Source: Mytilus edulis
Lineage: Eukaryota
Direction: 5' to 3'
NCBI RefSeq assembly: GCF_963676685.1
Contig: NC_092348.1
Span: forward strand, 88,970,001 to 89,034,000
DNA: 64,000 bases
Position numbers: made by a program. The first letter of the stretch is position 1. Each line of letters begins with the position of its first letter. Below are positions 27,001-63,000 of the stretch, one piece after another.

Positions 27001-30000
27001 TCCTTTAACTGCATAATTAAAAGAATACCTTCTATTTATTAGGCTTACATTTGATAAAATTGTTGTTTTTAATTTTTTTTTTATATATTTATTTTGTTCT
27101 TACCTGATCATCTAATGGCAGTTCACAAAAACACGGTATATATTTTGCCCATTCTACAAGGACAAGTAATTGTTGTTTAATAGATTCACACACATCATCG
27201 GCAGTCGCTATAACCTTGTGTGTTAGGTCACACTGTCCAACGGGGGATGAGATCTGAAAATTCAAACATACATGGTTATTTATACAGTTCTACATACAGT
27301 CAAACTAGCATATAAAGGTCAAATCTAAGGACCAGAGAAAACTGACCTAATAAGAGAGATGATCTTTGAATAAAATGGATTTAAAATGCACAAGTATTAC
27401 AACATCCAATCAAGAAGAGGATGATCTGTTAAAACAGTTTTTTTTTTTTTAATAGAAATGATCTTTATTCAGGTTTGACTGTATTCATGCATATGTGAAG
27501 GTTATTCCCAAATTTTTACTTATTATAAAGTATTAGTTCTCTTCCTTTCATTCCTTATTCCCTCACTCAGAATCATACCGATTGATCATTAACTTTATAA
27601 TAACAGTTAAATATCATTTTGTTTTCTAAAAATTGTTTGTATCATCAGATTTTTTCTATCAACAAAATTACTGAGCCAAAAACAGCTCATGAATTATGGA
27701 AATATCATTTTAACAAAATGTCAACATTTTTTTTTCCAAATCCTAGTGACAAATCGGTCTAAAATTAGTCATTACCTATTCATTTTATCATGTGCTTTAT
27801 GTTATGGATCATCCTCATCATCTGATTGTTTTTTTAAACATTAAATAAGATTAAACATAACAATGTATGATCTCACCTGTCTAGAGAGAATTTCAGCGTT
27901 TAACAGCGTACTGACGGAGAGTGAATTGTTTTGACTGGTATCTTCGTAACTGGTTCTTCTAACACTTATTCTGTCTCGTTCATTCTGTACAGCTGTCAAC
28001 AACAAAACAAAAAACTATTATAATCTTTTATTTTACAATGACCTTTTGAAAATCAGAAATACTGATCAAAGGTTGGTAGGAAAATGTTCAGTTTTAATAC
28101 TGACTTTATATCAATCTATAGAGACACCAAGTCATTTTGCAAGAGTAGTCAGAATTGGGAAAGGGGGTCTTTCTTTTCATTATTGTTTAATTTTTTAAGC
28201 CATTTTTTTTTTTCGATATTCTTTATATTTTGGTGTCCTGTTAATACTTTGGCCTATTATTTTTTTGAACCCTCTTTTCTGAATGTTTTTGCCCATTGTT
28301 CTCTATTCAGTAAACCCCATCCAGACCCTTATGCAAGCTATTTTAGATCAGGATATTGCTCTCCAAGAGTAATAATTCAAAATTTATAAAAAAAATCTTG
28401 TGTTAAATCATTTCCTTTGTAGTAAAACTTAAGACTTTTTAAAAGTTCAATTGTCACTCTATAATTGCATTCATTACAGTTGAATGAAGTTATATCAAAG
28501 CTTATGTTATAATATGAACTATGAACTAAATCGTTTAATTTTCTTGTCATGAAATATCATCCATCAGCAATCTGTTTTATTCCTTACCTTCTTTTTTCAT
28601 TCCTGCTCTGAAACATTTACGTAATCTGCAGTAACGACACTGATTTCTCTTATCTTTGTCTACAACACAATTCCGACTAAATCTACAGGAATAAACATGG
28701 TTCTTTCTGACACTACGACGAAAGAATCCCTTACAGCCGTCACAACTTGAGGCCCCATAATGTTTGCCGGTAGCCCTGTCTCCACATATGGCACAATATG
28801 TACTCATCCCTTGGGTGGGGGAGGTGGAGACACCCATGACAGGAGTCTGTCCCAGCGCTCCCATACTGAGTTCTGGAGAGTCTGAAAGTAAAAATAATAA
28901 ACTTCATTTAATTATCCATTTCATATAAATTTCTTGTAGGACCAATCAGTAAGTCATTCAGGTACGACTGATTAATTGATATCTCCATTAGAATTCATAA
29001 TTATAAATCCTTGATACATTTTAGCTGCATTATCCTACGAAGAAGAAGAGAAAGATTGTATTACCATGAGTAAGCAACCCAACAATGTCAAACATTTAAA
29101 AGTTACCATCTGATAACCATGACAATACATATTTTGTCAACCACTCAGTGGATATTAATTGTTTCATCATTTAAATGTCAAAGATAAATTTAACATTTTA
29201 AGTCACTACAATAGAAACTTGGTTCTGAAAAAAATGTTCATTTAGTGTCGCTATGTATATACTTAAAATGCATTATGATATAGTTTTACAGTTCATTTTA
29301 CACCTATAATCATTTGTCAAATGTCACACTAAGATGTACATGGGTGTTATTTTAAAATATACTATTACTATACTTATAATGGTCACTCTAGTCATTACTA
29401 CTTAATCTGAGAGATGCAAAAAAATATCACTTACAGTTACTACTTATACCAGAGATTTGTCAAATCAAATATCTTATTTTCCTTTCTATAGTTCATTTTT
29501 TTATCTGTTTTCCATTAGAATAAATTAATAAAACTTATAGAATTTGATAATTTGGTGAAACAAATTATTTTAAAACATACTAAATGTGAAGTTTGAAAAA
29601 AAAATCTTTCCTAAACACTTACATATAGAATTTCTTTGATTTTCTTATTTATAACTTTATAACAAATAAACAGGCAAATAACATTTGCTTTTTAAAACAA
29701 TATAACAAGCAAATGTATTTCTTGTATCATTTTAATAAATACATGATTGATTCTATCATTTTATTTTAAATAAAAGTAAATCAAAAATAGTTCAAATCAA
29801 AATTAAATTTACTTTTTGATCTACAAAATTAAATAAAAATAAAACAAATGTACTAAAAGTACTTAAATAAAAATCCTCCTACCTGGATCATAATAATAGT
29901 ACTCATGTTCCTGATGGACTGGTGCATAATGCTGTTCTAAATAAGAATATAGCATAGTGCTAGTAAAGTCTTTACTACTGGTATGATTTTTTTCCACAAT

Positions 30001-60000: not shown

Positions 60001-63000
60001 AAAATAATAACTACAGATCCAAATAAAAAAACCAACCCCTATCGCTGAGATTACATTCGGAACTTTTTTCCTCTGTCATTTTCCCTGATCATAATGAAAA
60101 ACCTGTCAACAATTTGGTTGCCTATTTTAGGATACGTTAATTTCAATATATATATGATATAAAATAAAGTAGTCTTAAAGTAAAGTACTTTCGTCGAAAA
60201 AGTATTTATTGTTCATTGAATTTGAGGACATTAGTTCTTGCATAAGCCAGTCGGATAAAATAATATTCATGTTTGGGTAAACGATGATGCGGACGTGTTG
60301 ACCGATTTATTTCAATACTTAGTTTCTTACCAACATCATCACAATTTGATGAACTGTCACTCATACTATTAGATAACAATTATGACAGGGGTTTCCCAGG
60401 AAATCCCATAGGTCAAACTCCAAATGCCTGGCCAGTTTGTTCGTTTGTTGGTTATCCGCTACACCATCACGTGCTATGTGGTCATGTGACTGTTATCTTA
60501 AGTTCCGGCGTTCCATATTGTGAACTTTACCATGACCACGTGTAAACATAAGTTAAAAGTGTGGACACATAACAATGCCGTCATACGTCATGTAAAATTT
60601 TTAAATACTATACAAATCCTTGATAATAAAAGAATGAAAAAATGCATTTTTTGAAAATATAGTTACATCAGAGAAATATATTCGTCTCGGTTTACATGTT
60701 CAACTAGATTCTATACGAAACAAATTAGATATGATTTTTGTATGGTTTCAAACATTTAAATAAAGACGGAATATAGAGAGAAAAAAAAATCGCTTTTAGC
60801 GATCAGTTTGTAACAATATCGTCAAAATAAGCTAGATTTTGCATGATTTCATCTTGACACATATTTCAGGAACTGCGAGTACTCTCAAATCGTAATTTCG
60901 TGTTAATTTGACTTGTTGATACAATTTCAAGTGTAATGAATGCTTTTTTGTTATTTAATGTTTACTTATTTAGTGTTATATCTCGTCTCTCTATTTTTAA
61001 TATATACCAGTTTTCATAAGTATTTGGTATGACTATTAATTTTCACTTATATTCTCGTACTATGGACAAACAAATGTTTATTTTGTAAAACATAATGATA
61101 TTTCTGTTCTCCATTACTGTATACCTTACAACAAAATTATTTTCATTTACTTGTGTATAATATTTTATTTTGCGGCATTTTGTCAAAAATTATGGTTGTC
61201 TTTCTGATATTGTTTAACATTATTATTAACATCACCCCTTATTTTATTGATTTTGTATTTACATTGTGTCATAGATTAAATGTATTCGTTGATTGTATGT
61301 TCACTTGTTTGTGTTAATATGTCCTTTGATTGGATTAAGCCATTTCAATTGACATTTTATCATAAATGTGTCTTTCTATCGGTTGTGATGTTACATTATT
61401 GTTTCAGGTAAGAGTGAAGGTTGGTGCCTTTGAAAACATGTAAACCAGCTGCATTTGTTTGCCTGTATTAAGTCAGGAATCGACTGTTCAGTGGATGTCG
61501 ATTGTTGTTGTGGTTCATAAGTGTTTCTCGTTTCTCGTTTTTTTTATATAGATACTACCGTTTTTTTCCCTGTTTCAATGGTTTTACACTAGTCATATTG
61601 GGGCCTTTTATAGCTTGCAGTTCGGTGTGAGCCAATGCTCCTTGTTGAAGAAGGTACATATACGTTGACCTATAGTGTTTTTTTTTTTTTAAATTGTGAA
61701 TTACTAGTAGATGGAGAGTTGTCTCATGGACAATCATACCACAACTTCTCATATCCAGTAAAGTATCGCTGATATATTATTTGGCTTTTCTTATGAAATT
61801 TACCCTAATGTGAACTTATAATAGTGATGACCGGTTGCACCTGTGAACAGCATGTAGTCAGCATGTACATTCATTAAAAGGAAAATAACATCAACATTGG
61901 AAAGTGAAGTATTGGGGCCAGCAGATTTTAAAACCATTTCATTGACTTTCAGACACAAAAAAGTCATTGTTATATAGGCCAATCGAACTATTTATATTTT
62001 TGGTTATATTGGGTTATATGACAAATGTAGTCTCGATGCACCAGAGTTATCGGTCTTACAGCAAACAATATGCATATGGAGCTTCTGGATAATTGAGACT
62101 AGACAAATGGTAGTCTCCGGCGGTCATCTCGATTGATTATATGATGGTTTCTAAAAAAAAATATTCTCAATCTATAAGAAACAAACTAGATACGTAAAAT
62201 ACACGCGAATTGCTGATATATTTTTCGAGTCCATGTGTTGTTTATTCTCATTTTTGGACTTTTTGTAAATAGGATATGCGTTCTAGTCTGGTATGAATAA
62301 AATCTAAGAATTTGGGTCAAATCGATGAACAGAAATATGACCGCCAATGCTACTTTCAGCAAAAGCAAAGTATTAAAAACGCCTATATTTGTTGACAACC
62401 ACTTTAGTTGAATTCTGGTGGATAGTTGCTTCATTGGCATTCCGGCATACAAAATCTCATTAGGTTATTACCAGGTTATTTTCATTAACTGGCACTCATA
62501 CCACATTTTCTTATATTTCTTTTTTTAAATCTCTGTTGAATTAACTTCTTAAAAAGGATATTATCAAATCAATGTGGTATTCAGAACTCATGTATTCCAT
62601 AAAAATTGTCAATTCCAGCTAATTTGATGCCGTTAAATGTCCGTTACATTTTTACTACTATATAATAATATTAGATTATTACTGCACACACCTTATAATT
62701 TCAAAGAGCTTGTTCTTGATAAGTGTCTATTATAACCAATTTTCTGTGGATTATGTATGGTATTCCGATTTCTATTATTATTTGTATTTGAAATATGCGT
62801 ATAGTTTCACATGCATATATTAATCTTATCAACGTCCTTCAGTGGACATTTAATAACCATTATCTGTAAAATGTTTCATACAGTACTTTTTATTTAAATA
62901 CAGTTACAAGGTACAAAAAATATTTGTTATTTCTACTAAGGTCTTTAGTGTACCTACTTTATTGATGTTGGTATACAGCCATCAACACGATATTACCAGA

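What the first reader, a model, noticed from the sequence alone, without database searches (positions are those of the whole stretch)
28881..60364. Invertebrate HNF4 with a P1/P2-like distal first exon ~31.5 kb upstream
Seen: a 34-nt ATG-initiated mini-exon (60364-60331, MSDSSSNCDDV) ends in G|GTAAGA and splices in frame (phase 1, forming Asp) to the DBD exon. A separate Tyr-rich proximal exon (29955-29883) does the same. Established: vertebrate HNF4A uses a proximal P1 (aromatic/acidic AF-1) and a far-upstream P2 (no AF-1), joining near D-TSPS. Inference: an analogous or ancestral two-promoter, AF-1 plus/minus isoform system in a mollusc. This would make most of 30-60 kb a repeat-laden first intron.
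Basis: partly seen in the sequence, partly recalled or inferred. Interest (0 to 1): 0.68.

Follow-up and report, generated by a model that had tools for sequence, protein, structure and literature searches.

The report
Mussel HNF4 gene, three alternative starts
A mussel copy of the gut and liver regulator HNF4 can begin with at least three different first exons spread over 30 kb, much as the human gene does with two; two of the three are already in public gene models.

Summary
On the minus strand, a 34-nt exon with its own ATG (60364-60331) and a Tyr-rich exon with its own ATG (29955-29883) both end in G|GT. Both fit in phase 1 onto the DNA-binding-domain (DBD) exon at 28881, forming Asp.

Both joins already exist in public Mytilus HNF4 models. 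P0001 starts MSDSSSNCDDV-DSPELS; P0002, M. trossulus isoform X2, starts MLYSYLEQHY...YYYYDP-DSPELS. The distal start type also occurs in scallop-like transcript assemblies, a unionid, a chiton and another bivalve assembly, so it is an old molluscan HNF4 exon.

A related mussel's transcript assembly joins its homologue to the DBD exon, and the frame is open in two further related ORFs.

Vertebrate and insect HNF4 isoforms diverge just before the corresponding Asp. No sequence homology to the vertebrate P1 or P2 first exons was detectable.

Separate promoters, differences in activation function AF-1 and an ancestral origin remain inferences. No RNA data were available. This is a new member of a known kind, of moderate interest.

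The parts
60331..60364 (-). Distal first coding exon (D): MSDSSSNCDDV + G, donor GTAAGA. It lies 31,449 nt upstream of the DBD-exon acceptor.
   Evidence: Searches give the sequence. P0001 residues 1-11 match at 100%; the same start type in P0007, P0011, P0015, P0017 and P0028.
60365..60965 (-). Region upstream of exon D and a putative distal promoter (inferred only). It is relatively CpG-rich. An AG at 60367-60366 could instead be an acceptor, which would make D an internal exon.
   Evidence: CpG observed/expected 1.15 here, against a window mean of 0.40 (sd 0.34); sequence; no long ORF upstream.
47021..47294 (-). It lies 18,139 nt upstream of the acceptor.
   Evidence: sequence. P0004 residues 1-93 match at 55% identity, E 1.2e-17, and P0004 continues directly into DSPEIS and the DBD. 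P0242 (61%) and P0243 (54%) keep the ATG, the open frame and the donor place; p = 5.8e-4 for 91 open codons.
29883..29955 (-). Proximal first coding exon (P): MLYSYLEQHYAPVHQEHEYYYYDP + G, donor GTAGGA. It holds a possible internal in-frame acceptor, with exon start 29936.
   Evidence: sequence. P0002 residues 1-24 match at 100%, E 6e-12. MLYSYL is identical in Mizuhopecten X2 (P0008), and ML[IY] starts occur in P0010 and P0020.
28588..28881 (-). Common exon 2: the rest of the A/B region ([11 protein letters not shown]...) plus the C4 zinc-finger DBD. Acceptor tttcag|AC; it ends GAA G|GTAAGG.
   Evidence: zf-C4, E 1e-30; 100% identity to P0001 and P0002; related genomic ORFs break at the same two boundaries.
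27877..27992 (-). Exon 3 (hinge: [13 protein letters not shown]...SRQ).
27104..27253 (-). Exon 4 (start of the ligand-binding domain, LBD).
25990..26230 (-). Exon 5 (LBD). The public model P0001 lacks it.
25329..25565 (-). Exon 6 (end of the LBD). Tandem donors at 25332 and 25329 (GGTGGT) give LLG-AAP or LLGG-AAP.
   Evidence: sequence. P0002 has LLGAAP and P0001 has LLGGAAP.
22770..23173 (-). Last coding exon (F domain), with stop TAA at 22772-22770.
   Evidence: Within the exon it is identical to P0001 and differs from P0002 at 4 residues.

Best explanation
The window carries a Mytilus HNF4 (nuclear receptor NR2A) gene on the minus strand, with coding sequence from 60364 to 22770. Its N-terminal A/B region is modular. 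At least three mutually exclusive first coding exons each carry their own ATG and end with a G in phase 1 before a GT donor. They are D (11 residues, Ser/Asp-rich), M (91 residues, ending in an invariant LQMLLLQEKQ) and P (24 residues, Tyr/acidic). Each joins the single acceptor at 28881, so every isoform continues D-SPELSMG... into the same DBD, hinge, LBD and F domain. The three exons lie 13 kb and 17 kb apart and each opens the reading frame. The most likely mechanism is therefore three separate promoters that give one DNA-binding core three different activation or regulatory N-termini. That is the design known from vertebrate HNF4A P1/P2 and from insect nuclear receptors. Shown: the exons, their phases, and their presence in public models, in assemblies and in other molluscs. 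Inferred: separate transcription starts, tissue or stage specificity, and different activation strength. The Tyr-rich module may also be used as an internal cassette after exon D, through the acceptor at 29936.
For: Identity as HNF4: zf-C4 E 1e-30 and two Hormone_recep hits. The DBD-exon search gave 1450 proteins with E <= 0.001 among 1491 candidates, and the top named hits are HNF4. D joined to exon 2: P0001. P joined to exon 2: P0002, M. trossulus isoform X2. M joined to exon 2: P0004, a transcript-sized assembly from a related mussel. The M frame, its ATG and its donor place are kept in P0242 and P0243. These, with the window's own ORF (P0241) and one spurious bacterial repeat protein (P0244), are the 4 hits with E <= 0.001 in 1.84 billion representatives. 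The D type is conserved: all 5 motif hits in 244 stored proteins are at the start of molluscan HNF4s, plus P0028 by eye. The P type is conserved: MLYSYL is identical in a scallop. Scallop-type sequences with an identical 29-residue exon-2 start also show three N-termini (P0007 D type, P0008 P type, P0009 long). The same divergence point occurs in caecilian X1/X2 pairs (P0038/P0045, P0048/P0118) and in bees with three N-termini before DADLSMG (P0096, P0089, P0079). All three ATGs have A at -3. No other gene was found in the intron: 0 of 8 ORFs of 90-116 aa from the intron or upstream of exon D, and not the M exon itself, had a Pfam hit at E <= 0.001, and there were 0 Rfam hits.
Against: No RNA-seq, CAGE or cDNA from this species was available, so no junction or transcription start is observed directly. 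P0001 is a flawed automatic model: it lacks exon 5 and reads part of that region in another frame, so its first exon may not rest on transcript evidence. No full-length protein carrying this species' M exon was found (11 candidates, none with E <= 1). Only a genomic ORF was found (P0241). The M exon has no detectable relative outside mussels: hhalign against the long N-termini of Pecten P0009 and Haliotis P0049 gave E 0.81 and 0.56. An AG just before the D-exon ATG and the D + Tyr chains in P0015 and P0028 leave room for a shared upstream start with alternative splicing. The members of the 57-sequence cluster behind P0002, which would show the other M. trossulus isoforms, could not be listed.
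Confidence: 0.75

Rival explanations
1. There is one distal promoter with alternative splicing. Transcription always starts at or upstream of exon D. The Tyr-rich module is an internal cassette used through the acceptor at 29936. The ATGs of P and M are not real starts.
For: P0015 (Potamilus model) and P0028 (an assembly) carry a D-type start followed by a Tyr-rich module in one chain. Four other bivalve sequences put different starts in front of a shared S-x-RE-x-YYYY module (P0016, P0019, P0047, P0066). The acceptor at 29936 is in frame.
Against: The six residues MLYSYL, which lie upstream of that acceptor, are identical in a scallop (P0008). ML[IY] starts recur in an oyster and a limpet, which is not expected of intron sequence. 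All four M-type sequences begin at the same Met (MT[ED]) with a stop just before it in the window. P0004 starts there.
Confidence: 0.15
2. The distal mini-exon is a chance ATG...G|GT frame that an automatic gene predictor picked up. It is not a real HNF4 exon.
For: 93 such frames exist in the 35 kb. An 11-codon open frame has p = 0.41. P0001 is faulty elsewhere.
Against: The same Ser/acidic start sits directly before the junction in two scallop-like assemblies, a unionid, a chiton and P0028. The motif is found nowhere else in 72,327 stored residues. The donor GTAAGA is one of only 5 strict ones.
Confidence: 0.05
3. The 91-codon middle ORF belongs to a separate small gene or a mobile element nested in the intron, not to HNF4.
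For: It has no Pfam family. No full-length model of this species holds it. The library hits P0241-P0243 are stand-alone ORFs.
Against: In P0004 the homologous 93 residues run straight into DSPEIS and the HNF4 DBD. All copies end at ...QEKQ followed by G, that is at the donor, in the phase that fits exon 2. There is no reverse transcriptase, transposase or other domain.
Confidence: 0.05

Closest known systems
Vertebrate HNF4A P1/P2 dual-promoter system (exon 1A with AF-1, and exon 1D far upstream)
   Same: Alternative ATG-bearing first exons join one exon 2. Isoforms diverge just before D-x-SP-x-E (caecilian X1/X2 pairs). The distal exon is short and lies tens of kb upstream: 31.4 kb here, against about 50 kb or 'forty kilobases' in mammals (passages of PMC10438950 and PMC10450339). 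One first exon is aromatic and acidic, as AF-1 is described (Tyr6, Tyr14, Phe19; PMC10438950 passage).
   Different: There are three or more first exons here. No sequence similarity to exon 1A or 1D was found. The Tyr-rich module may also be a cassette. Neither promoters nor AF-1 activity have been shown.
Insect and mite HNF4 N-terminal isoforms in RefSeq
   Same: Two or three alternative N-termini join before a conserved D-A-D-L-S-M-G, which resembles the mussel D-SPELSMG (bees P0096, P0089, P0079; Lycorma with two starts and an optional cassette; Varroa P0051/P0052). A cotton-aphid paper lists four RefSeq isoforms (PMC12733786 passage).
   Different: The first exons themselves are unrelated in sequence. 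Exon positions in those genomes were not seen here. From recall only, not seen here: three HNF-4 isoforms were described in the mosquito in 1998, and several Hnf4 transcripts are listed for Drosophila.
Alternative A/B-domain isoforms of other nuclear receptors (EcR-A/B1, E75A/B/C)
   Same: Alternative 5' exons give one DBD/LBD core different N-terminal activation regions (abstracts of PMC2829036 and PMC4499807, seen in the listings).
   Different: These are different receptor subfamilies, so the likeness is a general design rather than homology.

Membership tests
HNF4 / NR2A nuclear receptor | C4 double zinc-finger DBD | tested here: met
   PF00105, E 1e-30, on exon 2.
HNF4 / NR2A nuclear receptor | Nuclear-receptor ligand-binding domain downstream on the same strand | tested here: met
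   PF00104, E 3.9e-10 and 1.1e-13; all exons are collinear with P0002.
HNF4 / NR2A nuclear receptor | Closest named relatives are HNF4 rather than another NR2 group | tested here: met
   the top named hits are Mytilus, scallop and oyster 'hepatocyte nuclear factor 4'. No tree was built.
P1/P2-type alternative-promoter system of HNF4A | Two or more ATG-bearing first exons joined to the same exon-2 acceptor | tested here: met
   D, M and P all end in phase-1 G|GT, and public chains P0001, P0004 (a relative) and P0002 show the joins.
P1/P2-type alternative-promoter system of HNF4A | Junction at the same place in the protein as in vertebrates | tested here: met
   vertebrate X1/X2 pairs diverge before DASPSE and mussel isoforms before DSPELS. 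Intron phase in vertebrates was not seen.
P1/P2-type alternative-promoter system of HNF4A | First exons homologous to exon 1A (AF-1) and exon 1D | tested here: not met
   the 23 best rows were all shuffled decoys, and the best real sequence scored 3.2 bits; the alignment starts only at residue 29 of P0001.
P1/P2-type alternative-promoter system of HNF4A | Independent transcription start sites at each first exon | not testable with these tools
   No RNA or CAGE data were available. The only hint is CpG observed/expected of 1.15 upstream of D.
P1/P2-type alternative-promoter system of HNF4A | Isoforms differ in AF-1 activity | not testable with these tools
   Composition only: P is Tyr/acidic and D is Ser/Asp with no bulky hydrophobic residues.

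The most novel reading that the evidence does not exclude
The modular N-terminus is ancestral to molluscs. It consists of a Ser/acidic first exon, an optional Tyr-rich module and lineage-specific long first exons, all entering the common exon at one phase-1 Asp codon. The junction itself predates the split of molluscs, insects and vertebrates. On this reading the vertebrate P1/P2 pair is the remnant of an old bilaterian multi-promoter design rather than a vertebrate invention. In addition, the mussel-specific M exon ends in an invariant LxxLL-like LQMLLLQEKQ. This motif could dock on the receptor's own coactivator groove, as the FxxLF motif of the androgen receptor does (recalled).
Probability: 0.25. 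Interest if true: 0.6.

Novelty: new member of a known kind. Interest (0 to 1): 0.36.

Why it matters
A 2023 review of HNF4A isoforms asks why the dual-promoter system is conserved across so many species. It discusses vertebrates only; 'invertebrate' occurs 0 times in its text (PMC10438950). Mussels, scallops, bees and caecilians all switch first exons at the same point of the protein. If that holds up, the question can be asked in animals where HNF4 is a single gene. Mussel digestive gland, gill and larvae would then be a simple system for testing what the different N-termini do. For annotation, the finding adds a third coding first exon and flags a faulty public model.

Tried and rejected
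- Search for full-length proteins holding the M exon: 11 candidates, none with E <= 1.
- Search of short proteins with the DBD exon: I fetched the 8 best of the 120 listed. All 8 are genomic ORFs that read through both exon borders, so they gave no isoform information.
- Profile of the mussel M exon against the long N-termini of Pecten and Haliotis: no similarity. The 'long type' is positional only.
- Profile of the vertebrate P1 A/B domain (22 sequences) against invertebrate N-termini with 20 shuffles each: no signal.
- HNF4-type half-site CAAAGKYCA: 7 matches against 3.5 +/- 1.9 expected, and 7 of 100 shuffles reached 7, so it is not enriched.
- The N-terminus of P0006 (an M. galloprovincialis paralogue or fusion model) gave no tblastn match upstream of exon 2.
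The LxxLL docking idea is therefore untested.
- Paper searches found no paper on alternative promoters or N-terminal isoforms of a molluscan HNF4. Passages of PMC4070562 and PMC7827873 treat the oyster gene as one form.
- The 1998 mosquito isoform paper that I recall was not found.
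Full report
**Scope and method.** The window (64,000 nt, no N, 31% G+C) is a mussel locus, not human. I did not build or search a joined spliced sequence from the window. Whole-protein comparisons used database proteins returned by the searches.

**Observation.** Read on the minus strand, the distal exon is ATG 60364 to G 60331 (MSDSSSNCDDV + G) followed by GTAAGA. An in-frame TAA lies six codons upstream.
- The proximal exon is ATG 29955 to G 29883 (MLYSYLEQHYAPVHQEHEYYYYDP + G) followed by GTAGGA.
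- The next exon starts at 28881 after tttttactttcag. G + AC makes Asp, and the frame runs on as [10 protein letters not shown]... into a C4 zinc finger (PF00105, E 1e-30).
- The in-frame internal acceptor at 29936 is also present.
- The pattern alone is weak. There are 93 ATG-opened frames ending in phase-1 G|GT on this strand between 28.9 and 64 kb, 5 of them with G|GTRAG. Eleven open codons have p = 0.41.

**The gene.** The DBD exon searched against longer proteins gave 1450 hits with E <= 0.001 among 1491 candidates.
- The two best hits are 100% identical. P0001 is a 441-aa Mytilus model. P0002 is 503 aa and is named 'hepatocyte nuclear factor 4-gamma-like isoform X2 [Mytilus trossulus]'.
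- tblastn of these proteins against the window, together with the splice sites, gives seven coding exons after the first:

| Exon | Coordinates (minus strand) |
|---|---|
| 2 | 28881-28588 |
| 3 | 27992-27877 |
| 4 | 27253-27104 |
| 5 | 26230-25990 |
| 6 | 25565-25332 or 25565-25329 |
| 7 | 23173-22770 |

- The last exon is identical to P0001 and differs from the M. trossulus protein at four residues. The window therefore comes from a close relative of M. trossulus.

**The two exons of the finding.**
- P0001 begins MSDSSSNCDDV-DSPELS, which is the distal exon joined directly to exon 2.
- P0002 begins MLYSYLEQHYAPVHQEHEYYYYDP-DSPELS, which is the proximal exon joined to exon 2.
- Both joins are therefore already in public annotation.
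- P0001 is a flawed automatic model. It lacks exon 5 and reads part of that region in another frame. I did not rely on it alone.

**Independent support for exon D.** Support comes from other molluscs:
- two scallop-like transcript assemblies: P0007 MDQSNMSDTSSTSE-DSPEMS and P0011 ...MSDTSSNSE-DSPELS;
- a chiton RefSeq protein: P0017 MSESASDSEE-SPDM;
- a unionid model: P0015 MSESSSSEFEE...;
- another bivalve assembly: P0028 MSDNSSASDNEE....

The motif MS[DE][ST][SA]S occurs five times in the 72,327 residues of all 244 stored proteins. Each time it sits at this position in a molluscan HNF4.

**Independent support for exon P.** The first six residues, MLYSYL, are identical in Mizuhopecten isoform X2 (P0008). 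ML[IY] starts followed by Tyr-rich sequence occur in an oyster (P0010) and a limpet (P0020).

**A third first exon.**
- P0004 is a 565-aa transcript-sized assembly from a related mussel. It has a long N-terminus that ends ...LQMLLLQEKQ-DSPEIS.
- Its first 93 residues match the window at 47294-47022 (55% identity, E 1.2e-17).
- There the window has an ATG right after a stop, then 91 open codons, then G|GTAAAT. This is again phase 1 with a G.
- A full scan of 1.84 billion representative proteins found four hits with E <= 0.001. One is the window's own ORF (P0241). Two are related ORFs (P0242 at 61% and P0243 at 54%) that keep the Met, the frame and the end ...QMLLLQEKQ followed by G. The fourth is a spurious bacterial repeat protein.
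- Ninety-one open codons have p = 5.8e-4 at this base composition.
- The exon has no Pfam family.
- I found no relative outside mussels, and none in the long N-termini of Pecten or Haliotis.
- No full-length model of this species holds it.

**A fourth candidate.** At 46000-45991 the sequence reads ATG TAC TTA G|GTGAGA. It recalls the MYIT-DSPEIS start of assembly P0005, but this is unverified.

**The intron.**
- The introns to exon 2 are 31,449 nt (D), 18,139 nt (M) and 1,001 nt (P).
- Between P and D, tandem arrays make up 11.5% of the sequence. They include a 1.8-kb array of 47-49-nt units.
- None of the eight ORFs of 90-116 aa that I scanned from the intron or upstream of D had a Pfam hit at E <= 0.001. 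There were no Rfam hits.
- Nothing suggests another gene that could own these exons.

**Promoters.** Nothing here shows transcription starts.
- The 600 nt upstream of D have a CpG observed/expected ratio of 1.15, against a window mean of 0.40 (sd 0.34). Upstream of M and P the ratio is about 0.2. That fits an open promoter at D but is only a hint.
- An AG directly before the D-exon ATG could make D an internal exon behind an unseen non-coding exon.

**Promoter choice or cassette?** In P0015 and P0028 the Ser/acidic start is followed by a Tyr-rich module in the same chain. In four other bivalve sequences, different starts precede a shared S-x-RE-x-YYYY module.
- Whether the Tyr module is present may be decided by splicing as well as by promoter choice.
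- Conservation of MLYSYL upstream of that acceptor argues that the proximal ATG is also used.

**Comparison with known systems.**
- In the stored hits, caecilian HNF4A X1/X2 pairs diverge exactly before DASPSE (P0038/P0045, P0048/P0118).
- Bees have three N-termini before DADLSMG. A planthopper has two starts plus a cassette, and a mite has two starts.
- The junction is thus shared across three phyla.
- The first exons are not shared. A profile of 22 vertebrate P1 A/B domains scored no invertebrate N-terminus above shuffled copies; the 23 best rows were all decoys.
- BLASTP of P0001 against a P2-type isoform starts only at residue 29.
- Passages of two reviews place mammalian P2 about 50 kb or forty kb upstream, describe exon 1D as conserved in vertebrates, and do not mention invertebrates (PMC10438950, PMC10450339).
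- Seven searches of the paper library found nothing on molluscan HNF4 isoforms. Supplements were closed and I did not ask for them.

**Verdict.** It is a real alternative-first-exon system of an HNF4 gene, with at least three first exons, two of them already in public models. 'P1/P2-like' holds for architecture and junction, not for exon homology. Whether promoters differ, whether AF-1 is gained or lost, and whether the design is ancestral all remain open.

Noticed in passing
window 45991-46000 (-), with 46201-46600 upstream: ATG TAC TTA G|GTGAGA is one of only 5 strict phase-1 candidates, and it recalls the MYIT-DSPEIS start of assembly P0005. It could be a fourth first exon. Upstream lie a 45-nt tandem array and a TTCGAA-rich stretch with CpG observed/expected of 2.04.
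   Followed up: partly
window 25329-25332 (-): Tandem donors (GGTGGT) at the end of exon 6 explain the one-Gly difference between the public chains (LLGAAP in P0002, LLGGAAP in P0001 and most bivalves).
   Followed up: partly
window 25990-26230 (-), compared with P0001: The public model P0001 lacks exon 5 and reads part of that region in another frame (residues about 199-228). It is a mis-annotated LBD.
   Followed up: yes
window 1-822 (+): An open frame running off the window start, with a YIDD-type motif and a weak reverse-transcriptase hit (RVT_1, E 0.0027, below the cut-off). It is probably a retroelement fragment downstream of HNF4.
   Followed up: partly
window 6475-6768 (+): An ORF with weak WD40/beta-propeller hits (best E 8.6e-4, all below the cut-offs). 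It may be an exon of a neighbouring gene on the other strand.
   Followed up: no
window 39773-41642, 50996-51780, 33051-33497 and 16787-17386: Long tandem arrays with units of 47-49, 161 and 56 nt, plus a repeat-derived open frame at 16.8-17.4 kb. There is also an inverted repeat of 79-nt arms at 44019-44354 that looks like a miniature transposable element (MITE).
   Followed up: partly
protein P0006 (not in the window): An M. galloprovincialis model of 1485 aa joins an HNF4-like DBD/LBD that has several odd substitutions in the zinc fingers to unrelated sequence, behind yet another N-terminus. It points to a second, possibly decaying, HNF4 copy in that genome.
   Followed up: no
window 60420-60620 (-): Two CACGTG E-boxes, a TGACGT CRE-like half-site and a TATTTAAA lie within about 250 nt upstream of the distal ATG. 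They are consensus matches only.
   Followed up: no
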